Source: Sporopachydermia quercuum (lineage: Eukaryota). From it: a stretch of 64,000 nucleotides of DNA. Each line of letters begins with the position of its first letter. Positions within the stretch are counted from its first letter, which is position 1. A program made the translations under genes and the position numbers. The DNA is taken from NCBI GenBank assembly GCA_001599295.1, contig BCGN01000006.1, positions 1,054,001 through 1,118,000 of the forward strand. The letters are read 5' to 3'. The notes beneath the pieces were generated by a model. That model saw only the letters and a program-made list of their open reading frames with translations. It was not told the DNA's origin and made no database searches. Positions 2,475 to 64,000 of this stretch are shown here, piece by piece.

Positions 2475-3050
2475 TCTATTATATTACTATGCGCAACGCC
2501 CGTCCTAACTCTTAATTCTCGTACGGTACATTAAATATGATATAAAGCAATCACAGGCTGTCACAAACAGCATGGAGAGAACTTCGTCTCCATAAGAACA
2601 ATCAATTCAATTATTTACCAGCTTTATTGCCATCAGAACTATCACCTATCTATTATTTTACCTGCCCCTGATATGGGACGTCATGGATAGATTATATATT
2701 TCTGATGATATAATCGTTAAATTGATCTCATCAAGTGAACTTACTAATTGAGCTGCCTGATAAGCCGTTATGATGGGATAAAGGATTGCTGAATTTACTT
2801 GAACTGGGCTGAATAGGTATTGAATTTGTAGAATTATATTGGATTGAGTGAAGAAAAAAAAGTATAAGACGATTAAGATAGATAGCTAGAAGTTGGTTGA
2901 CTAGGTAAAGTTATAGCATAGTACTGCGATAGTCTGTAGTTTAGTAGTTACTGATTGAGATTGAGCACACTGTACATAAACTATTGGAAGGCAACAGAGT
3001 CAAGGTGAACCAATTTTTGGATAAAACTGATAGTGAAAAGATATTATAGC

Positions 3051-34200: not shown

Positions 34201-34225
34201 AGTCTTCTCGTTGTTTCTTTGACAT
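31214..34225 (-). CDS. RRM + YTH-domain RNA-binding protein (YTHDC/YT521-B type), about 1003 aa
   Basis: RRM: RGPPRKP..HTLWIGNL (RNP2) and IFYIQKSGCAFANY (RNP1). YTH: YFICKSLTTEDLENS...WATQSH...VYLIFSGNRTGEYFGYAEM ... PFKVRW...VPF...NNYNHNKEVKVARDGTRVE. His/Gln-rich N-terminus; ATG at 34225. Confidence 0.9.
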   Translation of the reverse strand: MSKKQREDSDYANNKSNTKVHNNSFDVATSTLNGSGLDSYSQNNQRLSLESPGPPIRDVRQDYQQHHFHGYHHHHHHHHQQSQSYQTQQEEEDESSSPHVNKPTNQQQSHKSVRKRRSQQRSHNENQNAFHQQQNQQAYFMRLFPGSMNSFYGDPMYHSNVIQFAQPNVYIHHPHGHPHAVYPTGFSLCMNPSESVGEPGYNMHPMTTSSWGRSTLSTAPDQWNAYSWDSGSRYPISGSEEHFDPSRSWVSPMIARSLSNSASYSGNYSSSSGNSSTGNISMTGSVTGSIKSNSQCAGESKFYSEEDFPSEEGVSDIQRRKPSKGSRRKNSNHNTIGSRNGSKSGSIGDILPYKQQPQQDHCVTLKHTREESQYNNILFTPEGIFFTDPSSDNRSESGTGDGKLKGKGKVKIELYGKDDSNPIAGNHLLTKLTISMLSIIRGPPRKPIQTKHTLWIGNLSQKSDDFNLPPENFGDSSSGSGSGSGKKKHHEILLLTQEEATVLNLFFTSEKHNEDMETKPECRELFYTLLSRLSFSYKNLSSLMRILADEELASIFYIQKSGCAFANYRTKEAMDATFDRVVEEERLREKEKEKEKEKSSEGIIKNEHEPADLNSQANEPPGKGTVNSVSQARGIPGKSLLTLADGEAKQANEAPVVDPASGDATDVNPVSTPAAASVSKKIYVGGRKLTIRPKKDNSDEYDSEVGSSASSTVSTGSEDSRTSRADKPRCAYFICKSLTTEDLENSVMSNMWATQSHLVSKFNKYFARNDHVYLIFSGNRTGEYFGYAEMVEEIPTAHEGELFGQGGQNSAREVKSLEGKSSSIEETFESLPASAPTSDNIHIPKVLFVPKLGKLPRGRIIDDLERGIMFWEAFDWKNELVYSDEQNESNCDGLSTSNFDKKDKEKDRKSDSDGNSKADGQKSSGTKNAANWTYPFKVRWVYPLPEDLVARRNIRVPFWKVKNVKNNYNHNKEVKVARDGTRVEEAAAEAIISLFPVNKLVLT

Positions 34226-34276
34226 CAATTACTTCACCAATCCAGTATGAATAAGTAATTAAACGAAAAAGCAGAT

Positions 34277-35220
34277 CTAGAATGATAACGTTAGTAACAG
34301 ATGTCCTAATGATGGTAATGATAATAATAGTAAACAAGAATGAGAATGAAACATAAAAAATAAAAAATAAAAAATGAAGAATGGAAAACAGCAAACTGAT
34401 TGTTATTGAGTGAAGGAAAGACTGGGAAACTTTGATCGAGTTGATTTTGGTTCTGTTCTGCCGCGTAGATTCAAATAGAATCATGAAATAGTAACAGGAG
34501 GATGTTACTCCTTCACTCAAGGCAACGTAATGTAAATATATTTTTCAAGCTGAAGTAGAGAAGCAGAAATTAAAGACTTTCTATCTCGTTTTCCATCAGA
34601 AACCATTGTCAGAGCGTACAGTAAGAATATAGTACGCTTTTACATCACGAGACCAACCAACAAGAAGGGCAGTGTGTTAAAAGTCCAATTCGGCAACAAA
34701 TTCAAGTTGCTTACCACCAAGCAATAAAATCTCACTTGATTGATTTAGCAATGACACTGAGGATAACCCCTATCAGCAGATTAACAGCATAATACAAAGA
34801 ATCAATCAACTCTGCACCCTTCTCTACGCTCTATTTCTTTTGCACTTCGACCTTTTTAACCAATCAATTCTTCCTCTTCTAACAATCATTCACTTTGAAA
34901 CTATCCCTTCATTCCTCTGGTAGCAAAAACAATTTAAAAAATGGGCTCACCTTTTCAATCTCAGATGACTTTTCAACTTAATTTCTCGTTTTTCACTTCG
35001 CACTTTACTGTAAGCTAATACAGCTAGAGTATTGAGCCCACCCTCAATCGAGATAAGCAACTGAACAACGAAGTGAGAGAACCAGAAACAAGAAAATAGA
35101 AGAAAAAAAATAAACTTCTTAAAGACCACAACACTCACAGGATCCTTATAGGTATCCTATAAGCCTATAATTGCTTTCGAAACAATGACGCAATATAGCA
35201 AAGAAAAAAAATAAACATAC
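34277..35220 (-). other. Predicted 5'-UTR intron of the YTH gene
   Basis: Perfect TACTAAC (34296-34290) followed by a TTCTAG acceptor ending at 34277. Candidate donors are GTATGT (35220), GTGAGT (35138) and GTAAGC (34714). An in-frame TAA just upstream of the ATG makes the upstream exon non-coding. Confidence 0.6.
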
Positions 35221-35693
35221 AAACAAATAGAGAAAAAGAAAGAAAAAGAAAAGAAAAAAAAAGATAAGAGATCAAACAAACTGACAATTCAGTATATGAA
35301 TTAGTTGCTCATCCAATTAACCAATACTCCATAATATAATCAGATAAATAGGGAAATGAACATAGTATGGCTTTTCTTCCTAGAGGTACAATCAAACCAA
35401 TTCACTACACTTGTAGAGGAATGAAAAAAGTGATGAAAACACTATCGAAATTCCACTCACCGGCCAGTGAATTTTATGTAATACACTGAGCGAAGTGAGA
35501 TGGGAAATGATTGCTGAACGGAGATGTGATGGTAGTGACAGAGTTGATGACTGAAATTGACGTGGATTAGGTAATCTTTCTTGTGCGAATGATGGTAAAA
35601 ATGAAATCAATGTATGTAGGGATTTTCTCCGCTTAAGGTGATCTTTGATTTGTTGATGACTCTTTGGTCGTTAATTGAAGCTCTTTCCTGGTT

Positions 35694-35694
<1 letters not shown>

Positions 35695-35727
<33 letters not shown>
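35695..35727. repeat. Poly(dT:dA) tract of about 33 nt
   Basis: Uninterrupted T run in the YTH-YPT35 intergenic region. Confidence 0.9.
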
Positions 35728-38700
35728 CACAGGATACGGTAAATTGTATACCACAGCGCTGTTTGTGATTGTATATTTTGCTAACAATAACAAGAATGAA
35801 TACAGTTGATCAGCTCAATAGTGTATTTCCATCGCATTTCATAGTAATGGCTTGTTTTTCTTCTGTTCACAGAAAATCAGTAAGAAATAGCAACCTGTTA
35901 AAGTTGCCACACTGGCAAGGCTCCTTCGTCATTAATTGTAAAATTCAGGTTTAGAAATGCGTTAAGTTAATTTGCAGGTTTGATTTCCTTTGAAAAGCAT
36001 GTGGGTAGGTAATATTGGACATCATCACGAATACTCATATTTAGTTGTAGATGATCAGGTGCACGATATAGCATATTGACGCTGTAAAAATTCTTTCTTG
36101 AAATTGCTAGTGTTTTCTATGTTGTTAAGGGTTTCATTATTTTCTTTTTGTAGCAATATTCCTCTTGCTGTTGTATCATCCGACACATCTCTTTAAGCTC
36201 TGATCACTGATCGTAGATATTATGACAAACCACTAAAACTTCCGAGATAGTTGCAGAAAGAAGATCACGTCATCATTTAGATGATATTAAGGTTAAAACT
36301 GGTAAATAGAGTTTAACGACATCACTCAACCTTAACTTTAATATGGTTCCGTAGAATTTCACAAGTTCTCGATGAGAATGAACTTGATAGGAAAACCTAT
36401 TTGACGATTCAACACTCATTCACTCCTCCTCCAAAAAGGAGTACCGAAAATCTAACCATACACGCACGATTTAGCGATATTTTGAAGAAATGAGATATTT
36501 CAAGGTAATAGCTGCTGAATGTGATGTCTGAGTCAAAAAAAAAAAATTTTGATTGCCACGTTGGAAGTTAAAGCTTTGTATTATTGGATATGTTTGTTGA
36601 TTGATTGACTTTTCGGTTGTAGATCAAATGAATTGATTATTGGTGATATAGCTTTGCTGTTTCCCAATTAAAATAAAGCATTTGAAGAATAAAGTAAATT
36701 AAATAAAAAATATACTTACCTTTATCACAATTTGAATCTTGATGGTCCAAGTGAAGATATCCGCAATTCACTGAATTATTGATAATATCCTCGTTTCGAT
36801 ACGAGTGTTCCTTGGTCAATTGAAAATGAAATAAGTACGTGTGGTTGAAATTCCTTGTAAACTACAAGTAGCCTTTATTGTCACCAGTATATTTTTGTTG
36901 GCAAATCGATATTGGTATTAATATCCGTGCAAAACAATCATTAGCAACTTTTTGATGTAGATTTCATAATTTCAATCATTGACTTGATTGATAGTAAGCA
37001 GGTAATAACATCAAGAGACTGCATGAGCGAGAGCAATGAAAGATAAATATTTCAGGAAAACAATGGCTTTAAAGGGAATGGAGAGATATATATAAAATCA
37101 AATCTGTCAAACGGTTTTTTCTGTACGTAAGATTCAATGATGTATCAGCAGGTTTCTTAACGGTTTTATGCTTTTTTGACAGAAAGGTTTTTACTGATTC
37201 TTTGTCTCTATCGAAAGATTTGGACTTTTGTTCTACGTAGTATATCGGCATGAATCTATTGGAACCAATTTAAGAGAAAACATAAGTGATTATCAGGTCA
37301 GAAATATAAAATTGAATTGTCTTACAGCGCATTGCTGATACATCAATACCAAAACATAAACAAGAACCTTGTGCTAATGTTGATAGTACTAGAATGTGGA
37401 GTGCAGAGCCTCAGAATGACTTACTGTCAACTCAATTCAATAACGCATCGCAATTGCTATAATTGTACTTAAAGGCAAAGGCGGTTAAACAAAGCCGAGT
37501 GAATCCAACAGACTGCCCTTTTGGTCAATATAGTCAAAGCCTAACCTTGCTCTACTCTTTTTCGTTCGATTGATGGAAGGAAAGGGTAGATTTCGATTTG
37601 AAGCATTGTCATGAGCGGAATTCTAGGAAAGGCAATTCCAGATTACATTAAGGTTTAATCAAGCATTTTTAAGTTTGGCACCACACTTTAAACCAGCTGT
37701 TAAACTTACTAAACTTGCGAAACTTACAACATGATTTCAATTGATTCAACTCAACAATGCGAAGGAGAATTGTTTCAATACTTTCAGTCCAAAAACTTTC
37801 ATAATATAGCAGGTAAATACAACACATCAAACTAATATCAAAAAAGTTTTCTCTGAATTATCTGGATTCAGGTATTGTAGAACGTTAAATTATTGACCGA
37901 TTCTCATTGGGTCAGATCAGATAGTGGGAACTTAACTGAGACTAAGTTCCTAAATGAAAGAAGCAATGATTAAAGTTTTTAAGTTCTCAAGAAATTTCGG
38001 TTGATGAGAATTTTACAATACATGATTTGATGGTTTTTCTTATAGTGTAAAGTCAATATAGTACTCTGAAGAGAAGCTGAGTTCTGCTAGATGAATCTAG
38101 TTTCTGACAGAATATCTCTCTCCTTGAAACAAGTTGGTTTTTTCATACAAGATCTGCGTCAGGCGATGTGTGGCAAATCGAGGATGATTATTTTACCAGA
38201 ATTCGGAAATGTCATCCAAAACTTTAAAAACAAAGTTTAGCTTTTCAATCTTAGCTTAAGGTTGGAGTTAAGAGATGATGACTTTCTTCAGGGTTATTTC
38301 CATACTTTCCTATCTCCCTAGGATAGGGAATTGAATATACGGGGTTGGACAGATTTTAACAGTCTGGAGAATTAAGCACTCACAAATGCTTCAATTACTG
38401 TTAAGTTAAATTATTCTGCAGATTAGTCTCGAAAGTTAATTCACTGAAAAATCCACAAAATCCACTAAAAAGAGGGATAATGATTTGCTTGAGGAAGCTC
38501 ATCAGCAAAGATACATTAGTCAAGTTCATTGGAGAAATAATGACTACTCAGTAGTAGTTAAAGGAAGAGGTCAAAAGGCCAAGTTGTCCTGAAAGCAGAC
38601 ACATTTTCTTCTCATGATAACCAACTAGAACGTTACTCTAGGTTCAACAGAGCTGCGACGTAGTCATATTCTTAGTCATTCGCCAACAATTGAGTAAACG

Positions 38701-40269
38701 ACTCCAACTTACTAAGCCGGTGGTATCGATCAATTCTCAATACTAACTATCCCTGCCTATTCGTGTTTCACCGTTGTTCAGCTTGTATTCTGGTTTTCAA
38801 TAGGTATTTCCAGAATATTCTAGATCGTTCAATTATTCAACCACATTTCTGTTGATGTTCAGATATTGAGATTTGACTGACCCTTCACTGGCGATATATC
38901 CGTTGAGTCTTCCTTCCTTTAAATGGTCAACTTAGGTCTGAAGGTATCGTGTCTCAGTGTCTCATACTTCTCGTACTCAACAATTAATGAAACAGTTAAC
39001 TCGTAAATCTTTCTCCGCTACCCTGGCGTAAAATGTGGCACTCACATACATCTGTTTGTTCCATTTCGTCAGTTACATATTTGCATTCTTGCCATATAAT
39101 ACAGCTTTACAACTTAGTCAGTTTAAGTTGAATTCTAGGAAACTTTATTTGGAAAAATGGTCATTGATGTTTAATAGGAGAGGAAGTTTACACACTTGGA
39201 AGGCTTGAGAAGATTGCAAATGGGTAAACTTCATCTGGTTAATAATTGTAGAACGCTAGCTGTCTATTGATCGTATAATATGTATTACTAATTAACAGGT
39301 ATTCGCTATAAGCTACGTTTGTTTTTTACTATCCAAACAGCTTTTCCTTAGGTTCAGGAAACTTTGGTAGAAACGGAACAAAGTTTGAGTCATCTCAAAT
39401 GTTAATTTTGTTCTTCTACTTCAACTGCAAAGTTAGAAGCAGTCCTATTGAGCTTTTATATTCTGTCTGAAGAAAGGACTGGATTTCACCAACCAGTAAA
39501 ACAAACCTCCAACTTTTTAATATCATACCTCCCTTTCATCCTTTCATTTCTTCACTTTCTTCAAGTAAGAATAGTCGAAATTGCCCGTAAATCATCGTCT
39601 TCCATACAGGTTTATTTAGAGTTGAGTTCAAACAACTAAAGCTAAACTATAATCAAGTTTTGCATAAATCTCTTTTCTCACCTTTCATCCAACACTAATT
39701 CACCTAGCATGGGGTACTTATACATTGAAGCGATGAACCTGCTCTGAAGCCTCACTAAACATTAAACCAAATCAGTGAGCCTTATAACTTAAAAAAAAAA
39801 AGCTTCTACTACTTAATGATTACATAAACACTTAAACATTATTCCTCCTTCTACATCTCCTGTAAGCCCCCATAACACAAACACGCACATTACATTGTTT
39901 GTTAGCTGCTGTAGTTGTAAAGCAGCAGAAATACAATCTTAGGACTATTCTTTTCTCCTTTTAATATTTTGATGACCTTGCTTATTTTAAACTGCTGATT
40001 TGAAGCTAATCAATGAGTTATCTGTCACTTAACTTATACGCATTCTTTGGTTGATTTGTAGCTTGGAACTCATATTTGCATTTTCCTACATTTGTCACTT
40101 TCAGTTGTGGTATAATAGTAACAATAGTAGTCAAAGGGATAAGCGAGGTTGATCATGACCTGTATACTGTAGCTACGAAAATCTACTCTTTCTCTTTGTC
40201 TTGTGCAGTATATTGCATAACTACTTTGAAAGATTCTGAATCAAGTAGTAATAGCCAATTCTATACTTG

Positions 40270-41043
40270 ATGGAAAGATCAGCTAGAAAAAGCGATCCCA
40301 GCAACAACGGTGAGGATAAAGATGCTATTGGACCTGATTCAATCAGCAAGTCTGGTGATACTTACTATTCAGCAGTGGCAGGATCTCCATTAGATTCAGT
40401 AGACCCTCAAATATATGTAAAACCAATAGAAGATCCTGATTTGAAAGATGAATTGGTTGAATCTGATGCAGACACGTTACCACCAAAGCTTCCTGTGAGG
40501 CCAAAGGCTAAAACAATTGAGAGGAATGGTTCCCAATCTCAATTGGAGTCCCAGTATGAATTTCAATCGGAACCCAGATCTAGTAGAAGACTAGGTAAAA
40601 ACGGACGTCAATCAATAGGATCTCTAAATGAATTACCTCCTTTACCTATCCAGATGGTAGATAAAACTGTGGAGCCTGACGACAATACAAATGCTGTTTG
40701 GGTAAGAAATGTATTTGTGGGAACTGTCAATATCATACAGGGCTCAGATTTGGTAGGTGCTTATGCCGTCTGGACCTGCGTTATAGAAACAAAATCGAAC
40801 TCGAAAATAGTTATACATAAGCGGTATTCAGATTTTGTAACACTAAGAGATTCCCTCTGTTACGCTTTTCCTCAGAGGATCAACGAGATACCCAAACTGC
40901 CACCGAAGTCACTTATGTCAAGATTTAGAGATGAGTTCTTGAACGAAAGAAGGAAAGGTTTAGAATGGTTTCTTTCGTGTATTCTACTGAATCCAGTATT
41001 TTGCGGTTCTCCTATTGTCAAAGAATTTGTTGGTTCTAAGTAG
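40270..41043 (+). CDS. YPT35: PX-domain protein Ypt35
   Basis: C-terminal PX domain (YAVWTCVIET...KRYSDFVTLR..L...IPKLPPK...FLNERRKGLEWFLSCILLNP) after a disordered N-terminus. Confidence 0.85.
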   Translation: MERSARKSDPSNNGEDKDAIGPDSISKSGDTYYSAVAGSPLDSVDPQIYVKPIEDPDLKDELVESDADTLPPKLPVRPKAKTIERNGSQSQLESQYEFQSEPRSSRRLGKNGRQSIGSLNELPPLPIQMVDKTVEPDDNTNAVWVRNVFVGTVNIIQGSDLVGAYAVWTCVIETKSNSKIVIHKRYSDFVTLRDSLCYAFPQRINEIPKLPPKSLMSRFRDEFLNERRKGLEWFLSCILLNPVFCGSPIVKEFVGSK

Positions 41044-41461: not shown

Positions 41462-43780
41462 TTATTTTTCACTCCCTTGAAGCTCTTGGACCTTCTTAGC
41501 GTATACAACGTCTGCTATTTTCACCAAACGATGTACTCGTCTGGCCATATCACTGAGACACTTTTTATACCCATTGGCTCCCTTTGAAACGGGTCTTTCT
41601 ATCATTGGTGTATTATTGTAGAGGATTCTGTGAATAGCTTGAGAAAACTTGAAATGTACGTCTTCTTCTTGTAATATTTTACAAATGCTTTCAAGTTTCA
41701 CCGGTAAATCAGACAATGGTGTTGCTAATAATAAAAGAATATTCTTTGCCATGTTTTCTAGTTCTACTCTGTCCATCATTTCAACAGCTTGTAGATCAAA
41801 TTTATCGTATAACGAGATCTTTTCACCGGTTCTTGCCGATTTATAAGAACCCACATTTCCCTTTGATATTCTTTTTGACTTAGCAATGGCTTCTTTTTTA
41901 TTTACTTGTTCTTCTAGCTCTTTCGACTTATTCTCCATTTCTGCTAATTTCAATTGTAGCTCCTTGATTGTTGTATCTCTATTCTGCAGTTCGCTCTCTA
42001 GTAGTGTAATGACTTTCTGTGAATGAGAATGGGTATTTATGTTCACATCGTAGATAGAGTCGTTTGCATTTGGTGTTGATTTCAATTGTTCGTCCGGCGG
42101 TGTAGGAATTCTGCTGATGTTTTCAAGTCTGTATGACGAAGCGTTACGGATTCTGGCGTCTTCTATACCTAAACCGTTCAATGGTTTGGCTTGGTCTGCC
42201 TGGTGTGCTTGATTCGATTGTTTTGTTTCGTTTACCCGATTAGCCTGGTCTAATTCTGGAAGATGTTCATCTGGAGTTTTACTCTGATTATCGAGACCGG
42301 AAGCTGGTTGCCTTTGAATGCTGAAATAATCCTCAGTGGATGTCGATGGTATGACTGGATTGAGCTCTTTATAAGAAGGAGCATGATGTGACATCCTTGG
42401 TCTTCCATTGTTAGGGTCAATATAACTTTGAAAAGACGGATTCTCTGAATAGTACCGTGAAAGAATTTCTTCACCACCTGGCAGTTTCCGTAGGAAGTCT
42501 ACCAATTCTTCAGGTTCGCGTACTTCTTCCATAGAAGCCTTCTTGGAAGTTACATTGGTACGCCTTTGAAACATTTTTGTAAGAGGTTCAACTTCAGACG
42601 AATAAAAAGAAGATGTTTCTTTGGGTTGGTATTCCTGTGTATGTGGTTTTGGCTGCATAGTGTTGTTGATAGGTGCAGAGACCGACGAGGAAGGCGAATA
42701 GGAAGATAAAGAGGTAGATGTAGATGTCTGTAAGGAGTTGTGCGTATTAGTAGATAGCTGGCTACCAGCAGAACCAGGCTGTTGCTGATTCATACTATGA
42801 TTATTCCCTTTGGAGTCCGAGAGCTTTTGTAGTTCTTTCAAAATTGACTCTAGACATAGGTGTAATTCTTGGCTATTACGGTCCTTTTCTCCATGAAAAT
42901 TAACTGGGTCAACAGAATTCAAATTCTCATTGATATCAGCTTGCCCTCTTGCTGATGTATTAATCTGATTATCTGCTACTGTGTTGTTTGATTTTCCTGT
43001 ACCTTGAGGATCACCACCATTATTTATGTTGTTCGCAGCATCATTATATACAGTATAACTTTGGATGGACTGGGGGTTATAGAAATTTGCTGAGTTGATT
43101 GACGAGACAGTTGGATTTTCATTGAGTTTTCGATTTTCAGCCCAGCCTTCTGATGTTCCATCTGGCTGCGGCTGCGGTTGCGGCCGTGATGGTAGGTGCT
43201 CCCCTGTTACTTTCATAGCTGTTGTGTCCATACTTTGTCGATCAGTGGAAGGTTTGTCTGATTGGCGATCTAATTGCCCAAGATGTGGATTTGCAACAGC
43301 ATTCTGGCTTTTCTTCAGCTCCGTAATCTCAGCATCACTAACAGTTGAGTATTTAGAGTTCTGTTGAGGTGTCGAATGGGCTACAGATGTATTTTTGCTG
43401 TTATTATATCTTAGTGAAGAGCCATCTGCCTGGTTATGTAGATCATCATTAACATCAAAGACGCTGATTTCATGAAAACCAGTCATTGTATCATATACTT
43501 TGGAACTAGATTCTAAACCAAGATTTATGCTTGCCTCACGAGGCTTCTTCTTTTCAATTCGTGAAACTGGATGTAGAAAATCATTCACAGTTCTCTTTAT
43601 ATGTTTATCACTAGAATCTCTGTTAAGTTTTCTGTTGGGGACCTCGTAAATATCTATATCGTCTTCGGATGAAGATAGAAACTTGTATGAAGATGTATCG
43701 TCAGATCCAAAGTCATAACCAGAAGAATCATTCAATGATAATACATCTTCCAGCGTTACTCTATTTTTCACCTCCACCAT
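41462..43780 (-). CDS. Uncharacterised 772-aa protein: S/N/Q-rich disordered N-terminus, coiled coil and helical C-terminal domain
   Basis: Long uninterrupted ORF with heptads (LESELQNRDTTIKELQLKLAEMENKSKELEEQV). Family not recognised. Confidence 0.8.
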   Translation of the reverse strand: MVEVKNRVTLEDVLSLNDSSGYDFGSDDTSSYKFLSSSEDDIDIYEVPNRKLNRDSSDKHIKRTVNDFLHPVSRIEKKKPREASINLGLESSSKVYDTMTGFHEISVFDVNDDLHNQADGSSLRYNNSKNTSVAHSTPQQNSKYSTVSDAEITELKKSQNAVANPHLGQLDRQSDKPSTDRQSMDTTAMKVTGEHLPSRPQPQPQPDGTSEGWAENRKLNENPTVSSINSANFYNPQSIQSYTVYNDAANNINNGGDPQGTGKSNNTVADNQINTSARGQADINENLNSVDPVNFHGEKDRNSQELHLCLESILKELQKLSDSKGNNHSMNQQQPGSAGSQLSTNTHNSLQTSTSTSLSSYSPSSSVSAPINNTMQPKPHTQEYQPKETSSFYSSEVEPLTKMFQRRTNVTSKKASMEEVREPEELVDFLRKLPGGEEILSRYYSENPSFQSYIDPNNGRPRMSHHAPSYKELNPVIPSTSTEDYFSIQRQPASGLDNQSKTPDEHLPELDQANRVNETKQSNQAHQADQAKPLNGLGIEDARIRNASSYRLENISRIPTPPDEQLKSTPNANDSIYDVNINTHSHSQKVITLLESELQNRDTTIKELQLKLAEMENKSKELEEQVNKKEAIAKSKRISKGNVGSYKSARTGEKISLYDKFDLQAVEMMDRVELENMAKNILLLLATPLSDLPVKLESICKILQEEDVHFKFSQAIHRILYNNTPMIERPVSKGANGYKKCLSDMARRVHRLVKIADVVYAKKVQELQGSEK

Positions 43781-44582
43781 TTTCTATGATTTTAGCAGCA
43801 AGCGAACTAAGGAACGAACTACCAATATATCGTATAAACTACAGCTTTAACTATTGCCATTCACAAAATAATCGATTATCGTTTACACCCAATTTCCATC
43901 AAACCAATGTTAGGTTTGCATAGACTGAGCGATATAGTATCTAGCACGACTGAAGCAAAAGCACTGAGTGTTTAAGTAGCAGTATCTTTTGGAATGACAG
44001 CAAACTGGTGATATTTATATCCAACCATAGCAGGCACTTTATATTGTAGAGAACTAAACAGTTGCTGATGTCTTCATATAACTAATAGGATCCATCAAAA
44101 CAGATATCTTTATCGTTCAATTGATCATTTGATTGGATTGTGTTGTGTTTGTTTGTTTATTTTTTGATGTTTTGGTGATATCGTAAATTTCTCAAAAAGG
44201 ATGGATACAATCACAAACACGAACTTTCGTTTCAATTAAAAAATGGGTCTATTATGGGACAAATGGGGTTTGTGTTTTAGAATGTGCATGTGATATGGGA
44301 CAACTGTATTCCTGATATTATGATAGATTGAATGATATATGGATTGGAAAAAATGGAAAAGGAAGCGAGAAAGAATTGGATAGTATTAGAGACTAAATCG
44401 TATGCAAGGGTTACTGGTTTTAGAGAAGATTTGTGTGCCGAGGTGAGAGGTTTGATTGGTTTCATATTGTAATTGCCGGGGAAGCTCAGGAAATGGCAAA
44501 ACTGTGTGTTTCTACCGGACACACAGAGAACAAAGGATAGAAGAAGAGTAATTGGTAGTTCAGGGAGAAGAAATATGCTATA

Positions 44583-45370
44583 ATGGTGAATGCTGTGGAG
44601 ATTACACACATGGTCATTGACTGGCCACATTTGACGACGTTGATGTTGAAAACAGCCTTTCTTGGCTTTGTTATATTGAAAATCGGCCGCGGATTGTTCT
44701 CACCGATCGTGAATCTTTTGACGGTTGTCGGATATTGTTTGATTGGTATAAAAACAGGAGATATGAGCAGAGCCAGGTTTGAGTTAAGGAATTATGGTAG
44801 AAGGTATAAAAGATTTGTTATCATTAGTGGTCTTTTCCTTCTATTGGCTGTATATGTTTATCTAACAGCTGAAAAGCTGGATTGCTACAAGGTATGTGGG
44901 TTTTTGTGGAGAAAGCTAAGCAAATGACTCAATTGATGTGAGTGATGGCTGTGATCGTTATTAACTAGCATGATGATATCTTATTATTGAAAATTCAGGT
45001 ATTGAATGTTCCCAAGGATTCTGATTTAGAAACAATTGAGAAGGCATACAAAACAAAAGAAGTGATCTTGAACGTTCAGTTTGGGGATTTGGATAAATGC
45101 AACGAAGTTTCTTGCAATGCATCAAATAGCATATTGACAACGGTAAAGAAAAGCCATGAAATTATCAGTAATGATATATTAAGAGCTATCTACGATTATT
45201 GTGGATATGACTGTGTTAAAAGTTATCAATTGCCAGAAAACCGTGTTTTCTACCGAGCAGTTCGCAACTTCATTGTCAATCTACTTCGATGGGGATCTCA
45301 GAAGAAGTTAATCATCAAACAAAAAGCGTTATACACTCAAGTTGAAAACTTTTGTCTCATTATTGAATGA
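44583..45370 (+). CDS. Membrane protein with a degenerate J-like domain; exons 44583-44891 and 44999-45370, about 226 aa (5' end uncertain)
   Basis: AAG|GTATGT ... TTCAG| joins two ORFs in frame, creating DCYKVLNVPKDSDLETIEKAYK...VKKSHEIISNDILRAIYDYCG, a DnaJ helix pattern. Two to three hydrophobic segments precede it. Confidence 0.65.
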
Positions 45371-45866
45371 AAATCTTGACTCTTCTAACAGAAGTTGCGA
45401 ATCTCCAGAAAAGCATTTCTATACATCATGGTTAGGCTTTTTAGTGCTGAAAAGCATTTCTTTCATTCACTCAACTAATGAGCTTCACTCTTCGATAGTA
45501 AGGCGAATCCATCATCCGGTTAAGTACTATTTGAACACGCATTTCCTTTCTTTTGACTGAGAAGCTGGTAAGACAGAGCCATTGCTATTATGCTGGTCTA
45601 AGGATCAGCCGGAATAAAATTGTCACATGATATATCACGTGTTTAATGCATAAATATGTATTTGTTGCGTTTTGATGCATAGAAGTTAAAATTATTCTTA
45701 CTGGAAAGCTCCTCTCTGATAAATCATATCAATAAACATTCTTAAGGCTTGTCCTGACACATTACAACATCATTTTGCTGTTGGTATTCTTCAGCACAGC
45801 CCAGATTTATTGAGCATCAATACATAGAAAATTTTATTGTGTTCAGTGCTTATATATCCAGAAATA

Positions 45867-46623
45867 ATGGATCCATTGAAAGGCAAAGTTAGTCCTCTCA
45901 AGCAACTCTATTATAAATGGAGATCATTAAGAGACATCCCATTTCGTAAGAAATGGTTCATCGGTAAGCTATTTCTGTTTTTGATGGTATCCTTATATTT
46001 ATCAGTTGAAGTGAATATTGGCTTTTACTAACAGTTGCTTTTCAAAATAGGTTATGATCTCGATGGCAACACATTTTGGGAGTTTACAGATCAGAATGAT
46101 GGTGGACGATTTCGACGATTGGTGGAGTATCGAATTAAAAGACCTTTTGCTGAGTATAAAATTGCACGTATGTCATAATTTCATGATTGCTAGTAAGCAA
46201 ATCAGTTGAGGATTGAAGAACACTTTGTTCAGTGAACAGCTCAACTAACATAATGACTTAGCACAATGGTTGCAATGGTTAAGACATACAAGACCTCATC
46301 ATCCAACACTACAGGAACTAATAGGAGACCTGAAACGACAGGAATTATTAAAGTATCGTGTACAGCAAGCTGACAAGAAATGGAAGTCAATTCCACTCAA
46401 ACCTGAAGGGGACCTTGGAGTTGGTAAACAACAACGTATGAGTGATGTAATGGGATCCATCAATAATCAGACGTCAAATTACGAGAACAAAGAATTTGAA
46501 TTGAAACAACAACAATTGGAAGAAGCTACAAAGAATAAAGACAGTAAGCGACAGTTTGAGAAGCCTACAGAACAATTCCAGCCCAGGCAATGGTCTCAAA
46601 AGCCAGCCAGAAGAAGAGACTAA
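45867..46623 (+). CDS. NDUFAF2: Complex I assembly factor, NDUFAF2/mimitin (NDUFA12 family); exons 45867-45963, 46051-46167, 46262-46623; about 191 aa
   Basis: The spliced product contains YYKWRSLRDIPFRKKWFIGYDLDGNTFWEF...RRLVEY...IAPQWLQWLRHTRPHHPTLQEL...QFQPRQW. Introns are GTAAGC/TACTAAC/TAG and GTATGT/ACTAAC/TAG. Confidence 0.88.
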
Positions 46624-48384
46624 GATCACCATAGTACACGTTTTGTTTTTACAAGTAATTCTAGANATCAAAGCTAATATGCCTAGTCGTTTCTTCCATA
46701 TAATGAAACCTCTAACTAAATGCAATATGAACAATTTTTATGTATATATTATTTATCAATAAACTGAAGTTATTTATAATACCAATATTTTTTTTGAGCT
46801 TAGCAATTGTATAAATCACCTTTGCAAGCTTACACAACTACTGTCAAGACATAATACCTTAGAAATATAATTATCTCAACGGTTCGATGATTCATTCAAT
46901 AAACCCTATCAAGAATTGTTCTCTATTACTTATATGTCAAATCTCCGTTAACATATGTAGATCAAAAAGACTATAAACCAAGAGATCTTTCAAGTCTAGC
47001 TAAAAAAAAAAGAAGACCCCTTTGCAAAATTCAGATTTCTTCGTCCCTTTTCAATACATCATGCCAAGTTCACCATTCCAAGATCCTCCAGCCCCATATA
47101 ACACCAACTATTATCCATCCATCATAATTCATCATCTCTACCATCATTTGATTATTCTTAACGCTAGAATTATCTTCTACATCGGCACTCATCTTTCTCT
47201 TCTCTCACCACTATAATTCAGCGACAGACCCTCTATTTGCGCCCAGCACATGAAATAATGAAATGCTAATAAGTAGAGACCCTTGTAACCTTTAAAAGTC
47301 ACANGTAAGACCATCCTCATTCTTTAACATTCATACAAAAACGGGTAGAATCTGTGTAAGCTGCAGTTTCATTACGAACACCATTTTTTACTCAATTTAC
47401 ACACAAAATAAACTGCCAAAAAAGTTAACACATAATCCAATCAGCCTTTTTTTCTGCCTTACAAGTACAGTATCACCTAGCTATCTGCATATCATACAGA
47501 AAACGCGAAAAAAACTGTTGTATTGACAAGTTGATGTTGATATAACTGTACTCAATTCAGGCGGGGCTCAGATTGCTTGAAACCAAACAGGAGAATCGAC
47601 GGATCGGGCCAACAAGCGGAAGAGTGAGAGTCGTTTGTGAGAAGCACCAACCAAATTTATTAATGTTTGGTGTTCGCTTGAGTGTGTGATTACTTAAGTT
47701 AAAAAGAGCTTTGCTTTGTTTTATATTTTAATACTAGACAATTCAGCTCAGTAGTATCAATAGGATCAGTAGCAGATTTGGTGATCACTTGTATGGAAGA
47801 TTGATAAACCAGACAGTAGTTATAGCATTTGGTGATTCACTATCTCAACCTAGACAGCACTCCGCAGTATCTGGTTAATTCTACTATAGCAGTGACAAAT
47901 TTCATATTCACATTAAAACATAAATTGCCCAGCTGGTATTTTGCCACAGTTAGATATTGCAGTTACAACTGGACCGTGTTTTATTTCTATACGTGTCTTT
48001 AAGAGAAGAAGGCATCTACACGAGTATAGCAACGAAAGAGGTTTCAACTGAATAGAATATACTGAATCCGCTTTTGGATTTACTTTTGGTAAAATTTCAC
48101 AAGCTCTCACATTTTGTATTCACTCCAAGCCCAGAGTGTTTATCAATCGCCAGCTGGTTTAATGACTGAAGGTAAAATACTTAGTTGGTTTCACCCATCG
48201 AAAACAAAGGATATAAGCTTATAGGTCTTATTAACGTGTCTATTAACATTCACTGGCACATAACTACAATCGCTGTCGAAAATAGTCATTAGGAACAATA
48301 CAAAAGTCATTGGTTACTGGTATCTTCGCCGTATCGCATCCTTATTTCAACGTTAGATAATATTAACTCAGAACATACGACGCA

Positions 48385-49566
48385 ATGAAGATAATAACAT
48401 TTAGGAGAGTTGCTCTCATCACAACGACTCTTGTTCTGATATTCTTTTTGTTCTTCAAATCATCTGGCAAACTATCAGCAAAAGATCTTGCCATTGAAGA
48501 TTTACTGAGAGGAACATCGAACGTTGATGAAATTAGAGCAGAAACCAAAGCAACCCTAAAACGTATCGAAGAAGCTACCAATAAATTTATGGAAGAACAG
48601 AAACGTCAATTGGTGGAACTGGAACAAGAAAGACGTTCTATCGAAAGAAAGCTAGATGAGCTTAGAAGACCCCCTGAGGATCTCACTCTCAGGGAAAGAT
48701 TAGCTTTCTTGTTCCCTTATGATCAAGATGCAAGATTTCCTGCTTACATATGGCAAACTTGGGCATATGGCCTTTACGATGAAAGTCATCTTGACGAAGA
48801 ATTACAGCAATGCGCACGGTCCTGGGAAGATAAGAACCCATCCTTTGTTCATGAGGTTTTCGTAGACGATACCGAAGCAGCTATGGTTCATCATCTATAC
48901 AAAACAATTCCAGAAGTAATTGATACGTATCATGCATTACCAGCTTCAATTCTGAAAGCTCATTTCTTCCGATATCTAATCCTCTTCGCCAAAGGAGGTG
49001 TTTATGCTGATATTGATACTACATTACTTCAACCAATTCCCAACTGGATTCCTGAGAATGTAGGAACAAGCGAAATTGGTCTGGTCGTTGGAATTGAAGC
49101 TGATCCTACTACACCCGACTGGAGGAAAGATTTCGCCAGAAGACTTCAATTTGGTAATTGGGTCATTCAATCTAAACCAGGACATCCTGTGTTGAGAGAG
49201 ACGATTGCAAAGATCATTGAAATAACAGCTCGTAGACAACAAAACGATAAATTGTATCTACCTGACGGCGATTATGAAGGAGAAGATGAAAGCAAGAGCA
49301 GGAAACTGGCGATCATGGAATGGACTGGTGATGGTATATGGACTGATATCGTACTCACATTCTTCAATGACCATGTGCAATCAGGTGTTTGGCAAAAAAT
49401 AACATGGAGAGACTTCACTAAGCTGGAAATACCCAAATTGGTTTCCGATGTATTAGTGTTACCTATAACAAGCTTTTCACCTGGCATTGATATTATGAAC
49501 GCTGGTGAAGAGTCACATCCTTTGGCATTTGTTAAGCATTTATTTAGAAAGACATGGAAGAACTAA
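48385..49566 (+). CDS. HOC1: Alpha-1,6-mannosyltransferase, GT32 (Hoc1/Och1 family)
   Basis: Type II membrane anchor, coiled-coil stem, LRERLAFLFPYD..RFPAYIWQTW, FFRYLILFAKGGVYADID, QSKPGHPVLRE, VLVLPITSFSPG and FVKH. Confidence 0.88.
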   Translation: MKIITFRRVALITTTLVLIFFLFFKSSGKLSAKDLAIEDLLRGTSNVDEIRAETKATLKRIEEATNKFMEEQKRQLVELEQERRSIERKLDELRRPPEDLTLRERLAFLFPYDQDARFPAYIWQTWAYGLYDESHLDEELQQCARSWEDKNPSFVHEVFVDDTEAAMVHHLYKTIPEVIDTYHALPASILKAHFFRYLILFAKGGVYADIDTTLLQPIPNWIPENVGTSEIGLVVGIEADPTTPDWRKDFARRLQFGNWVIQSKPGHPVLRETIAKIIEITARRQQNDKLYLPDGDYEGEDESKSRKLAIMEWTGDGIWTDIVLTFFNDHVQSGVWQKITWRDFTKLEIPKLVSDVLVLPITSFSPGIDIMNAGEESHPLAFVKHLFRKTWKN

Positions 49567-61912: not shown

Positions 61913-62529
61913 CAAAGTTGGCCGAATGATGAGAAAATCATTTTCTAATTTAACAGTTCTGGAGAGAAAAGCGAATGTACTATGCATAATGTATTACTAC
62001 TTTAATTAGCATACAAATAATAGAATTTTTAATTGCTGTAGCTTCAACAGACATAGACAGGTATGATCAACCACCCGTACTATTACATGTAAAGTGCATA
62101 CTTTTTCATGCATGAATTATGCATATATTTAAGTATATGCACACCTTATTTCAGACCCTAAACACCAACTCTAATATTGGAAACTTCATTGTAAGAGCAA
62201 ACCCTATTTTTATTCCTTTTATCGCGTTACGTTAACCCATGTTAACCTATGAATTATNCCTTCTAATCAATTAAATAACATCCAGTAAAATAGTGTTTAA
62301 ATATGTAAGTCATGCAATNCTACTGCATAAACAAATACTGAACACGCCTTATTACTACGGCTCAAACGATTTGCAGATTCGTCTAATTCCAGCAGGTTAT
62401 CTACGATTCTGGCCTTTCTTTCCCCATGTCAATCCTGTCATACCCTGTCCTAAANATTGATTAGTTAAGCAAAGTTCTTAGGTGATACAGGCTAACTTAT
62501 ATATATATTTCTTTATTCTCACTCTTAGA

Positions 62530-63153
62530 ATGACAGGAAACACCAGGAAAAGAACTCTGCAAGATGAAGAAGAAAATAGGGAGATAGAAAACATGGATAG
62601 AGCATTCGCAGCTTACTATAAAACAGGATCACTGATAACCAAACAAGTACCCGCTTTACAAGATTCAAGAGCTGATGCTTTGGCCACAGTACCATTAGGA
62701 CTTCCAAACAGAAAAATGAACATTCAGGAAGCTACAATTGACTCAAGAGAAGGACCTGTTGCACCTTTGGGCGTTAATCTACTGAAAACCAACAGTTCAG
62801 GCAATATTCAGAAGCGAGGCAAAGGAAGACCTGCCTCTGACCTATCACAGGAACTGAAAGTCATGAAAAGAAGGGAGCAGCTAAGGGAGGCTCAGAAAAA
62901 CTACAGGAAACGGGCAGGTAAGCAAACCGAGACAAATATTAAGCTGCAGGAAGAAAATAGTAGACTGAAAGAGCTTTTAACGAGAATAAGCAAAGCACAA
63001 CTTGATTTATTCAAGGAAGAACTCAGTAGATTATCAACAGATGACGGGGACGAAAAGCAGAAATTAATAGACTCAATAGCCGATATTCAGCAGAGGATTT
63101 TAACTGAGGTTACATTAATAGAAAGTTTTGACGGGTCATCCACAGCAGCATAA
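62530..63153 (+). CDS. Fungal bZIP-like transcription factor, about 207 aa; probable 5'-UTR intron 62305-62528
   Basis: KGRP...KRREQLREAQKNYRKR basic region and a short zipper (IKLQEENSRLKELL). GTAAGT at 62305, GCTAAC at 62491 and TTAG at 62528, just before the ATG. Confidence 0.75.
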   Translation: MTGNTRKRTLQDEEENREIENMDRAFAAYYKTGSLITKQVPALQDSRADALATVPLGLPNRKMNIQEATIDSREGPVAPLGVNLLKTNSSGNIQKRGKGRPASDLSQELKVMKRREQLREAQKNYRKRAGKQTETNIKLQEENSRLKELLTRISKAQLDLFKEELSRLSTDDGDEKQKLIDSIADIQQRILTEVTLIESFDGSSTAA

Positions 63154-63234
63154 TTACAGTAATAGAATGAATTATGTATACATATTAACGAGCAATTAAC
63201 GAGTAATTAACAGCAATGAAGTATCTATATACTG

Positions 63235-63807
63235 TTAATAATCAATCAATCGATCCAAAATATGAAGGTTATCGATCAAAAAACTTGCGGCTTTAGAAGC
63301 AGCAACCTTTTTATTTATATCAAAAGCATAAACAACGGGCTTTTTCTCTACCAAAATCGTACATTTACAACAGAATATTTTTCCCTTCACAGGTTCATAA
63401 AGTAATTCGGCGGACTGATCTTCTTAACCCCCAAATGTGCATATAAGATATTCCTGGCATCGTTATTTATCTCCTGGTTTTCAGGTACTTACTGCTAAAT
63501 TCAGTGAATTACTAAAGGAAATATCAGAATCTGCCATGCTTTCAGAGTAATCACTATTGGAATCAAATTCATCAATATTCCCAATGGTGTCACTATGATA
63601 CTTATCTAGTGAATCCCTGTTCTCCCTCTCATTTTCTTCTATGTATGGAAGGTAAAGCTTTGATTGGTCTGAATAATCCAATAAGCTCTCTTTATAACCG
63701 AATTATACAACAGTATCAGTATCAGATTTAGCTGACATATATTTCAATAGTCTTGGAAGTTTGGCTTTATTTTTACTCTTCATATGACCAGTTCCATACT
63801 GTTCAAC
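63235..63807 (-). pseudogene. Decayed continuation of the same gene: linker plus a second (Dicer-type) dsRBD
   Basis: The same frame continues past the TAG (VEQYG...) and through TAA 63705-63703. A shifted frame then gives INNDARNILYAHLGVKKISP, and the original frame resumes with ELLYEPV..FCCKCTI...VYAFDINKKVAASKAASFL...DY*, stopping at 63237-63235. Confidence 0.75.
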
Positions 63808-64000
63808 CTAATTGTTTGCTTTCTTTAATGCATTCATTGCTGCTCTAGTACTAGCATCTTTTATGCTATTGCCCGTACCTATTCCTATTACGTTATCATC
63901 CATTCTGCACTCAACAACAGTTGCAAGTCTCATGCCATCACCTTGAGCGACCGTTTCATATTTTGGTGCAAGGTTTGGGCATGCTATCAAGTTATATAGT
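63808..64000 (-). CDS. 3' end of an RNT1/DCR1-family RNase III gene (dsRBD1); it starts beyond the window's right edge
   Basis: LYNLIACPNLAPKYETV...VVECRMDDNVIGIGTGNSIKDASTRAAMNAL closely follows the yeast Rnt1/Dcr1 dsRBD (LYSLIG...VECRV...GTGVGRNIK.A..RAA.NAL). The frame stops at TAG 63810-63808. Confidence 0.8.
   Translation of the reverse strand, partial: LYNLIACPNLAPKYETVAQGDGMRLATVVECRMDDNVIGIGTGNSIKDASTRAAMNALKKANN

What the first reader, a model, noticed from the sequence alone, without database searches (positions are those of the whole stretch)
63235..64000. Dicer-like RNase III gene apparently losing its second dsRBD, or wholly pseudogenised
Seen: the 63 codons at the window edge encode an intact Rnt1/Dcr1-type dsRBD. 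A TAG (63810-63808) then sits where Rnt1 has the Leu of its extra helix (NAL....*VEQY versus NAL....LDFY). Downstream the ancestral coding sequence is still readable but broken: TAA at 63705-63703 and two compensating frameshifts (near 63486 and 63412) within and just before a recognisable second dsRBD (DARNILYAHLG...AFDINKKVAASKAA). Known: budding-yeast Dicers (Dcr1) are Rnt1-like RNase III enzymes distinguished by a second C-terminal dsRBD, and RNAi was lost repeatedly in yeasts. Inference: either a Dicer was truncated to a one-dsRBD Rnt1-like enzyme with its old tail decaying, or this is a dead Dicer copy. All four lesions lie at or after the end of dsRBD1, which weakly favours truncation. 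None is an N call, and no other CDS here shows such lesions.
Basis: partly seen in the sequence, partly recalled or inferred. Interest (0 to 1): 0.85.

Follow-up and report, generated by a model that had tools for sequence, protein, structure and literature searches.

The report
Yeast RNase III with decayed tail
The end of a budding-yeast RNA-cutting enzyme gene has recently lost the second RNA-binding module that lets such enzymes act as Dicers, which points to a fairly fresh loss of RNA interference, but the catalytic part of the gene lies outside the window.

Summary
On the minus strand, 63999-63811 encodes the visible part of a dsRBD (Pfam dsrm E 8.8e-9; S. cerevisiae Rnt1p E 5e-7). It is closed by TAG at 63810-63808. 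The next 573 bases are a colinear relic of the former C-terminus: a helix motif, a linker with TAA at 63705-63703, and a second dsRBD split over two frames. A profile built from 34 yeast homologues finds both halves of that dsRBD (E 1.9e-9 and 0.025 among 2661 six-frame peptides). Read through with X at the break, it scores 53 bits. Contigs from two sequencing studies are identical here, so this is not a single-assembly error. Introns and recoding do not rescue the frame.

The homologues are Rnt1-like RNase III proteins, mostly with two dsRBDs, as in Candida albicans Dcr1. This locus can no longer make a two-dsRBD, Dicer-competent enzyme.

Whether the upstream RNase III part still works, or the whole gene is dead, cannot be decided. 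No sequence beyond 64000, no genome and no sister species were available. I lean to tail-only decay (about 0.5) over a dead copy (about 0.3). Interest is moderate, because RNAi loss is common in budding yeasts.

The parts
63811..63999 (-). Last 63 codons of the open reading frame. This is the visible part of dsRBD1 of an Rnt1/Dcr1-type RNase III. It runs off the window edge.
   Evidence: Pfam dsrm E 8.8e-9, profile 18-65 of 66. PDB Rnt1p chains E 5e-7. It scores 85.6 bits against a dsRBD1 profile of 36 homologues, whose leave-one-out median is 92.9; 10 of 36 score lower.
63808..63810 (-). In-frame TAG that now ends the reading frame.
   Evidence: In 36 aligned homologues this column reads L10, A6, M6, K5, V4, I3, T1, Q1. 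TAG ends 2 of the 17 complete ORFs of 150 aa or more in the window, so it is used as a stop here.
63706..63807 (-). Relic of the segment that follows dsRBD1. It starts with VEQY, the counterpart of the conserved (I/L/V)-E-K-Y start of the helix after dsRBD1.
   Evidence: tblastn matches of P0002, P0013, P0024 and P0028 run across the TAG to about 63706 in the same frame. Alignment. Beyond the motif the segment is poorly conserved: -0.4 bits against a homologue median of 23.2, with 1 of 36 lower.
63703..63705 (-). Second in-frame stop (TAA), in the former linker.
63484..63702 (-). Relic of the acidic, Ser-rich linker, still open in the dsRBD1 frame for 73 codons. It is then closed by TGA 63483-63481.
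   Evidence: No Pfam family. Linkers of the homologues are also unconserved.
63484..63488 (-). Zone of the first frame change, from the dsRBD1 frame to the next frame.
   Evidence: This is the only stretch where both frames are open: TAA 63491-63489 closes the second frame upstream and TGA 63483-63481 closes the first downstream.
63390..63488 (-). First part of the dsRBD2 relic (helix alpha1 up to the P-x-Y motif), read in the shifted frame.
   Evidence: Own dsRBD2 HMM positions 1-19, E 0.025, rank 3 of 2661 peptides. tblastn matches in this frame to the homologue's own dsRBD2 start in 10 of 41 homologues.
63390..63402 (-). Zone of the second frame change, back to the dsRBD1 frame.
   Evidence: Read-through with X at the break scores best with the break at 63402/63399 (53.1 bits). 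Breaks down to 63390 score 49-51 bits, and breaks at 63411 or above score 46 bits or less.
63238..63399 (-). Rest of the dsRBD2 relic (beta strands and helix alpha2 with the NKKVAASKAA stretch), plus a short tail.
   Evidence: Own dsRBD2 HMM positions 29-69, E 1.9e-9. tblastn matches to P0023 466-506 (E 8.5e-5) and P0041 478-519 (E 1.6e-4), both at the C-terminal ends of those proteins.
63235..63237 (-). Former stop codon (TAA) of the two-dsRBD protein. It lies 82 bases from the stop of the convergent ORF 62530-63153.

Best explanation
This is the 3' end of the lineage's Rnt1-like RNase III gene. Like Candida albicans Dcr1 and most of its relatives outside the Saccharomycetaceae, it once encoded two C-terminal dsRBDs.

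Shown:
- The reading frame now stops at TAG directly after dsRBD1.
- The following 573 bases are a young, colinear relic of the old C-terminus: helix motif, linker and dsRBD2. The relic carries one more stop and two frame changes.
- So no two-dsRBD enzyme can be made from this locus.

Inferred:
[quoted passage not shown] Deleting it in C. albicans DCR1 leaves viable, slower-growing cells with far fewer 21-23-nt small RNAs. By analogy, this yeast has lost Dicer-type siRNA production from this gene.
- The unseen upstream part most likely still encodes a working RNase III that keeps the Rnt1-type processing of rRNA, snRNA and snoRNA precursors.
- That would make it a natural counterpart of the engineered dcr1-RNAi allele.
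For: - Domain identity of the open part.
- Homologues: 41 of the 42 hits in the 1.84-billion-protein search align to dsRBD1. All 21 that I scanned with Pfam carry Ribonuclease_3, and 19 of those 21 have two dsrm stretches. Of the 41, 35 have 100 aa or more after dsRBD1.
- Relic of dsRBD2. Read through with X it scores 53.1 bits, E 4e-15. That is within the leave-one-out range of intact homologues (median 65.9; 5 of 34 lower), so the decay is recent.
- Lesions reproduced: one contig from each of two studies (2016 and 2023, word depth 97.5 and 33) covers 62456-64000 with no differences and no gaps.
- dsRBD1 scores like that of functional homologues: 85.6 bits against a median of 92.9.
- All four lesions lie in the 576 bases after dsRBD1 and none in the 189 visible bases before the TAG. 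My arithmetic gives a likelihood ratio of about 3.7 for tail-only decay.
- The helix segment after dsRBD1 is far less conserved than dsRBD2 further downstream. This suggests it was already weakly constrained in this lineage, which would make a stop there easier to tolerate.
- Functional analogy: passages of PMC11047096 and PMC3579876.
Against: - The RNase III domain and the N-terminal domain lie beyond base 64000 and could not be seen by any route.
- The TAG removes the helix after dsRBD1, which all 36 aligned homologues begin with a recognisable motif. For S. cerevisiae Rnt1p this helix is described as indispensable for the dsRBD fold (passage in PMC3199388). A protein ending at the TAG may therefore be unstable.
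- dsRBD1 has Ala where 35 of 36 homologues have Gly.
- 189 lesion-free bases are expected 27% of the time under neutral decay, so lesion placement is weak evidence.
- The homologues were found by likeness to this very dsRBD1, which inflates its profile score.
- Both read sets may come from the same strain, so the lesions may not be fixed in the species.
- Whether the organism has Argonaute or another RNase III gene is unknown.
Confidence: 0.5

Rival explanations
1. The whole gene is a dead copy. The organism has another working RNase III gene elsewhere, either a true RNT1 or a paralogue. This Dcr1-type copy is decaying along its whole length after RNAi was lost, and the visible 63 codons are lesion-free only by chance.
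For: - There are four disabling lesions in 576 bases.
- The first one removes the helix that follows dsRBD1 in all 36 aligned homologues. That helix is called indispensable for the Rnt1p dsRBD fold (PMC3199388 passage).
- A nearly invariant Gly is replaced by Ala in dsRBD1.
- The broken dsRBD2 still scores 53 bits, so a good profile score does not prove that a domain is under constraint.
- Paired RNase III genes, and repeated loss of the Dicer copy, are documented in budding yeasts (PMC3579876; PMC4629796 passages).
Against: - No lesion lies in the 189 visible bases before the TAG (P about 0.27 at the tail's density).
- dsRBD1 scores within the range of functional homologues.
- dsRBD1 is Rnt1p-like rather than like the dedicated Saccharomycetaceae Dicer. 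That fits the gene being the housekeeping RNase III.
- No second RNase III gene is in the window: the 18 ORFs and 46 further peptides scanned show no Ribonuclease_3 domain. This covers only 64 kb.
Confidence: 0.3
2. The lesions are sequencing or assembly errors, or mutations private to one cultured strain. The species normally has an intact two-dsRBD gene.
For: - The window carries 25 single N calls elsewhere, so base calling was not perfect everywhere.
- Both read sets that hold the stretch are flagged as possible sources of this DNA and carry the same organism label.
- A reference strain with a private RNAi defect is known in C. albicans (PMC11047096).
Against: - Contigs of two studies, seven years apart and at word depth 97.5 and 33, agree with the window at every base of 62456-64000.
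- Two of the four lesions are base substitutions that create stops, not homopolymer-length errors.
- Four independent lesions imply a long time without selection, not a culture accident.
Confidence: 0.07
3. The frame is rescued in the cell by introns, stop-codon readthrough or reassignment, or programmed frameshifting, so a two-dsRBD protein is still made.
For: - The organism has short canonical introns: a 73-base intron in the PMSR gene with GTAAGA, TACTAAC and CAG signals.
- A GTAAGT lies at 63492, exactly where the first frame closes.
Against: - The TAG is flanked on both sides, in the same frame, by sequence homologous to coding sequence of the relatives.
- The second frame change lies inside dsRBD2, with only about 30 bases between the two profile-matched halves.
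- There is no TACTAAC in 63235-63830. An intron starting at 63492 would remove the conserved alpha1 of dsRBD2 (and my reading).
- TAG ends 2 of the 17 complete ORFs in the window.
- Rescue would need four separate recoding events.
Confidence: 0.03

Closest known systems
Candida albicans Dcr1 (CaDcr1), the bifunctional RNT1/DCR1-type RNase III
   Same: It is an Rnt1-like RNase III with two C-terminal dsRBDs, which is the ancestral state inferred here. The best-matching proteins come largely from the same CUG clade: C. subhashii, Yamadazyma, Diutina, Spathaspora, Scheffersomyces and Australozyma. It has both Dicer and Rnt1 functions (PMC3579876, whole text read).
   Different: Here dsRBD2 is broken and the frame stops after dsRBD1. 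The catalytic part is unseen. Identity to these proteins is only about 35-55% over dsRBD1. The organism sits elsewhere in the tree: its CWC22 is at most about 51% identical to any protein in the database, and the best named hits are early-diverging budding yeasts.
Engineered C. albicans dcr1-RNAi allele (deletion of the second dsRBD; Iracane et al. 2024, PMC11047096)
   Same: It is an RNase III of this type without dsRBD2. The paper reports viable but slower-growing cells and a strong drop in 21-23-nt small RNAs (passages). That is the phenotype I infer for the natural allele.
   Different: It was made in the laboratory in another yeast. I did not see whether the construct keeps the helix after dsRBD1, which the natural TAG removes. 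The supplementary figure that describes the allele was not read.
Saccharomyces cerevisiae Rnt1p
   Same: dsRBD1 matches the Rnt1p dsRBD chains 1t4l, 1t4o, 4oog and 5t16 at E 5e-7 to 5e-6. The present reading frame has a single dsRBD, as Rnt1p does.
   Different: Rnt1p continues after the dsRBD with a third helix (PMC3199388 passage), whereas the frame here stops just before that segment. Rnt1p has no dsRBD2 relic downstream (that point is recalled, not tested here).
Dedicated budding-yeast Dicers (Naumovozyma castellii and Vanderwaltozyma/Kluyveromyces polyspora Dcr1)
   Same: They have one RNase III domain followed by two dsRBDs (PMC3579876; PMC10328071 passage).
   Different: dsRBD1 here barely resembles K. 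polysporus Dcr1 (3rv0: 13 bits, E 1). This gene is therefore not a close member of that Dicer clade.

Membership tests
Budding-yeast two-dsRBD RNase III (Dcr1 / RNT1-DCR1 type) | First dsRBD directly after the RNase III domain | tested here: met
   Pfam dsrm E 8.8e-9. It scores 85.6 bits against the profile of 36 homologues. The start of the domain is cut by the window edge.
Budding-yeast two-dsRBD RNase III (Dcr1 / RNT1-DCR1 type) | Second, C-terminal dsRBD in the same reading frame | tested here: not met
   The domain is present only as a relic: two halves in different frames behind two stops. The ancestral gene met this feature. The present reading frame does not.
Budding-yeast two-dsRBD RNase III (Dcr1 / RNT1-DCR1 type) | Single RNase III domain with the catalytic acidic residues, and the N-terminal dimerisation domain | not testable with these tools
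   These lie beyond base 64000. No genome is held, no protein of this organism is in the databases, and an exact 60-mer was not found in metagenome contigs.
Budding-yeast two-dsRBD RNase III (Dcr1 / RNT1-DCR1 type) | Production of about 22-23-nt siRNAs together with an Argonaute | not testable with these tools
   No RNA run is listed for the stretch. No PAZ or Piwi domain is in the window. The rest of the genome is unseen.
Rnt1p-type RNase III (one dsRBD) | dsRBD similar to that of Rnt1p | tested here: met
   PDB Rnt1p chains: 32.6 bits, E 5e-7, over query residues 1-60.
Rnt1p-type RNase III (one dsRBD) | Helical extension (alpha3) immediately after the dsRBD | tested here: not met
   The TAG lies one residue before the (I/L/V)-E-K-Y motif that opens this segment in all 36 aligned homologues. 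The segment survives only behind the stop and scores -0.4 bits.
Pseudogene (whole gene) | Disabling lesions relative to intact homologues | tested here: met
   There are two stops and two frame changes in the last 576 bases. This is shown for the tail only.
Pseudogene (whole gene) | Lesions or loss of constraint in the catalytic part as well | not testable with these tools
The 63 visible codons are lesion-free and score like functional homologues. One near-invariant Gly is replaced by Ala.

The most novel reading that the evidence does not exclude
This is a living intermediate of a transition that Bernstein, Vyas and Fink discussed but never observed. A bifunctional Rnt1/Dicer enzyme with two dsRBDs is turning into a one-dsRBD, Rnt1-only enzyme by decay of its tail. 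It would be a natural separation-of-function allele that dates a recent RNAi loss in an early-diverging budding-yeast lineage. It would also show that the enzyme can work without the helix after dsRBD1.
Probability: 0.4. Interest if true: 0.6.

Novelty: new member of a known kind. Interest (0 to 1): 0.45.

Why it matters
Budding yeasts have lost RNA interference many times. Usually only presence or absence of the genes is recorded (PMC4629796, PMC12663654, PMC5499181; passages). A still-readable relic of the Dicer-specific module fixes one loss to a recent time in one lineage. It also shows how the loss happened at the sequence level.

If the upstream enzyme is intact, the locus bears on an open question in PMC3579876: whether one-dsRBD Rnt1 enzymes can arise from two-dsRBD bifunctional enzymes by loss of a dsRBD. 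It would also be a natural test of whether the helix after dsRBD1 is dispensable.

If the whole gene is dead, it is an ordinary RNAi-loss pseudogene.

My searches for reports of such a relic found none. Searches returned 5, 30 and 28 papers holding the terms. I read passages of six of them (PMC3199388, PMC8138440, PMC12663654, PMC4629796, PMC5499181 and PMC3579876, of which parts 1-2 of 3). The library does not hold most subscription papers.

Tried and rejected
1. Seeing beyond base 64000:
- No genome is held.
- Word-index protein searches with the read-through tail and with dsRBD1 alone found nothing.
- The CWC22 search showed no self-hit, so this organism's proteins are not in the collection.
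- An exact 60-mer scan of metagenome contigs found nothing.
- The laid contigs run on past the window, but their letters are not given.

2. Synteny by locus tags, using the neighbouring CWC22: the best hits came from other species than the RNase III hits, so there was no test.

3. Pfam on the separate tail pieces gave no family at E up to 10. The family-specific profile was needed.

4. Intron rescue was rejected. Reassignment of TAG was rejected.

5. No RNA holder was listed for the stretch.

6. Runs X4 and X5, from other organisms of the same study, laid nothing at 80% likeness. So there was no sister-species comparison.

7. Earlier findings of this scan returned nothing by place, words or sequence.

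8. Rfam and repeat searches found nothing in the finding.

9. The piece 63238-63423 matched a TFIIB zinc ribbon in PDB (1pft, E 5e-4, 26 residues). I rejected it as chance for three reasons. Its first ten residues lie in the reading that the dsRBD2 profile disfavours by 8 bits. The first Cys knuckle is absent. The rest of the piece is dsRBD.

10. The short-tailed homologues P0020 and P0036 might have been natural one-dsRBD forms. P0020 is annotated 'partial' and P0036 has no name, so nothing is concluded from them.

11. Papers not held: PMC449770, PMC3786161 and PMC3169304. What I say about them comes from passages in other papers or from recall.

Full report
**What is in the sequence**

On the minus strand, the frame that begins at base 63999 is open for 63 codons and ends at TAG 63810-63808. 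Read past that stop, the same frame meets TAA at 63705-63703 and TGA at 63483-63481. The next frame is open over 63488-63390. The first frame is open again over 63423-63238 and ends at TAA 63237-63235.

The 63 codons match Pfam dsrm at profile positions 18-65 of 66 (E 8.8e-9). They also match the dsRBD of S. cerevisiae Rnt1p in five PDB sequences (E 5e-7 to 5e-6). The window edge cuts off the start of the domain. None of the window's 25 single N calls lies here; the last is at 62455.

**Relatives**

Word-index searches found nothing.

A full HMMER scan of 1.84 billion representative proteins used the tail read with X at stops. It gave 42 hits at E up to 0.001.
- One hit, P0001, matches only the low-complexity linker.
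- The other 41 all align to dsRBD1 by tblastn.
- I scanned 21 of these 41 with Pfam. All 21 carry Ribonuclease_3 and 19 of the 21 have two dsrm stretches.
- Of the 41, 35 have 100 residues or more after dsRBD1.

The named hits come from C. subhashii, Geotrichum candidum, C. arabinofermentans, Australozyma, Scheffersomyces spartinae, Yamadazyma, Diutina, C. viswanathii, Spathaspora, C. verbasci and Pachysolen. They are annotated as ribonuclease III or as similar to RNT1.

Identity over dsRBD1 is only about 35-55%. The neighbouring CWC22 is at most about 51% identical to anything in the database. Its best named hits are Lipomyces, Nadsonia, Dipodascopsis and Trichomonascus. So the organism is a budding yeast with no close relative in these collections.

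**The second dsRBD is real**

tblastn places the homologues' own dsRBD2 start on 63488-63396 in the shifted frame in 10 of 41 cases. In 4 further cases the match is to the homologue's dsRBD1 helix, and one case is unclear. The C-terminal halves of P0023 and P0041 fall on 63366-63241 in the first frame, at E 8.5e-5 and 1.6e-4.

I built an HMM of dsRBD2 from 34 of the 35 long-tailed homologues. P0042 was dropped because my 95-residue cut missed most of its domain. I searched the HMM against all 2661 stop-to-stop peptides of 15 aa or more in the six frames of the window.
- Apart from dsRBD1 (E 4.8e-11), only two peptides scored below E 0.4.
- These were 63238-63423 (E 1.9e-9, profile 29-69) and 63390-63488 (E 0.025, profile 1-19).
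- The two halves are colinear and complementary.

Read through with X at the break, the domain scores 53.1 bits (E 4e-15). The best break is at 63402/63399.

The first frame change is confined to 63488-63484 by flanking stops.

One caveat applies. The homologues were found with a query that included part of this tail. Their ranking was driven by dsRBD1, however.

**The TAG and the segment behind it**

I aligned 36 homologues. Six were dropped beforehand: P0001, P0009, P0012, P0021, P0022 and P0031. In the alignment the TAG column holds L10, A6, M6, K5, V4, I3, T1, Q1. The next four columns are (I/L/V), E, K, Y in most homologues, and the window still reads VEQY there.

Several tblastn matches run across the TAG to about 63706. 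The stop therefore lies inside formerly coding sequence. It sits at the start of the helix that follows dsRBD1.

**Not an artefact and not rescued**

One contig from each of two studies covers 62456-64000 with no differences and no gaps. The studies date from 2016 and 2023, with word depth 97.5 and 33. Both may be the source strain.

The organism does have short canonical introns, for example the 73-base intron in the PMSR gene. But there is no TACTAAC in the finding. The GTAAGT at 63492 would remove the conserved helix of dsRBD2. Neither the TAG nor the second frame change can lie in an intron (and my reading).

TAG ends 2 of the 17 complete ORFs of 150 aa or more in the window.

**How old, and how far does the decay reach?**

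Leave-one-out scoring gives the following.

| Segment | Window score (bits) | Homologue median (bits) | Homologues scoring lower |
|---|---|---|---|
| dsRBD1 | 85.6 | 92.9 | 10 of 36 |
| Helix segment after the TAG | -0.4 | 23.2 | 1 of 36 |
| Broken dsRBD2 (X at the break) | 53.1 | 65.9 | 5 of 34 |

The relic of dsRBD2 is thus nearly as good as live domains, so the decay is young. By the same token, a good dsRBD1 score does not prove constraint.

The helix segment is much worse than dsRBD2, which lies further downstream. This suggests it was already loosely constrained in this lineage.

One near-invariant Gly (35 of 36 homologues) is Ala in dsRBD1.

At four lesions per 576 bases, 189 clean bases are expected with probability 0.27 (my arithmetic).

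**What it is and how it works**

dsRBD1 is far closer to Rnt1p (32.6 bits) than to K. polysporus Dcr1 (13 bits, E 1). The gene is therefore an Rnt1-like RNase III that ancestrally had two dsRBDs, the type represented by C. albicans Dcr1. That enzyme has both Dicer and Rnt1 functions (PMC3579876, parts 1-2 of 3 read).

[quoted passage not shown] Deleting it in C. albicans gives viable, slower-growing cells with far fewer 21-23-nt small RNAs (PMC11047096 passages).

It is shown that this locus cannot produce a two-dsRBD enzyme. It is inferred that Dicer-type siRNA production is lost.

Whether the rest of the gene works is open. Against a working truncated enzyme, the helix removed by the TAG is called indispensable for the Rnt1p dsRBD fold (PMC3199388 passage). 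Also, the C-terminal part of Rnt1p next to the dsRBD is reported to bind Gar1p (PMC3867540 passage).

I put tail-only decay at about 0.5, a dead copy at about 0.3, strain-private lesions or error at about 0.07, and recoding at about 0.03.

**Novelty**

Repeated RNAi loss in budding yeasts is well known (PMC4629796, PMC5499181 and PMC12663654 passages). My searches turned up no report of a readable dsRBD2 relic in an Rnt1/Dcr1 gene. I read only passages, and the key subscription papers were not held.

This is a new instance of a known process. It would become more interesting if the upstream enzyme proves intact.

Noticed in passing
window 1742-2483 (minus strand): A peptide methionine sulfoxide reductase gene is split into two exons. 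Pfam PMSR positions 2-48 fall on 2160-2483 and positions 49-152 on 1742-2107. The exons are separated by a 73-base intron (2170-2098) with GTAAGA, TACTAAC and CAG signals. So this yeast has short canonical introns.
   Followed up: partly
window 21616-62455: There are 25 isolated single N calls, about one per 1.7 kb. None lies before 21616 or after 62455. They may be ambiguous or heterozygous positions. The contigs of runs X1 and X2 begin at about window base 61283, near two of them.
   Followed up: no
window 34225-40270 and 43780-48385: These are two long stretches without any ORF of 150 aa or more. Peptides of 70 aa or more from them have no Pfam family. Overall gene density is low for a budding yeast: 18 ORFs of 150 aa or more in 64 kb.
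   Followed up: partly
window 63238-63423 (minus strand): A 26-residue stretch of this relic peptide matches the second half of an archaeal TFIIB zinc ribbon (PDB 1pft, E 5e-4). I judged it a chance match. Part of it lies in the reading that the dsRBD2 profile disfavours, and the first Cys knuckle is missing.
   Followed up: partly
window 62530-63153 (plus strand): This is a convergent neighbour ORF of 207 aa with no Pfam family. By eye it has a basic region followed by a Leu-rich coiled stretch, like a bZIP. Its stop lies 82 bases from the former stop of the RNase III gene.
   Followed up: no
window 26729-29023 (plus strand): A glycoside hydrolase family 85 (endo-beta-N-acetylglucosaminidase) gene is present. 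As far as I recall, S. cerevisiae has no such gene. That fits a placement outside the Saccharomycetaceae.
   Followed up: no
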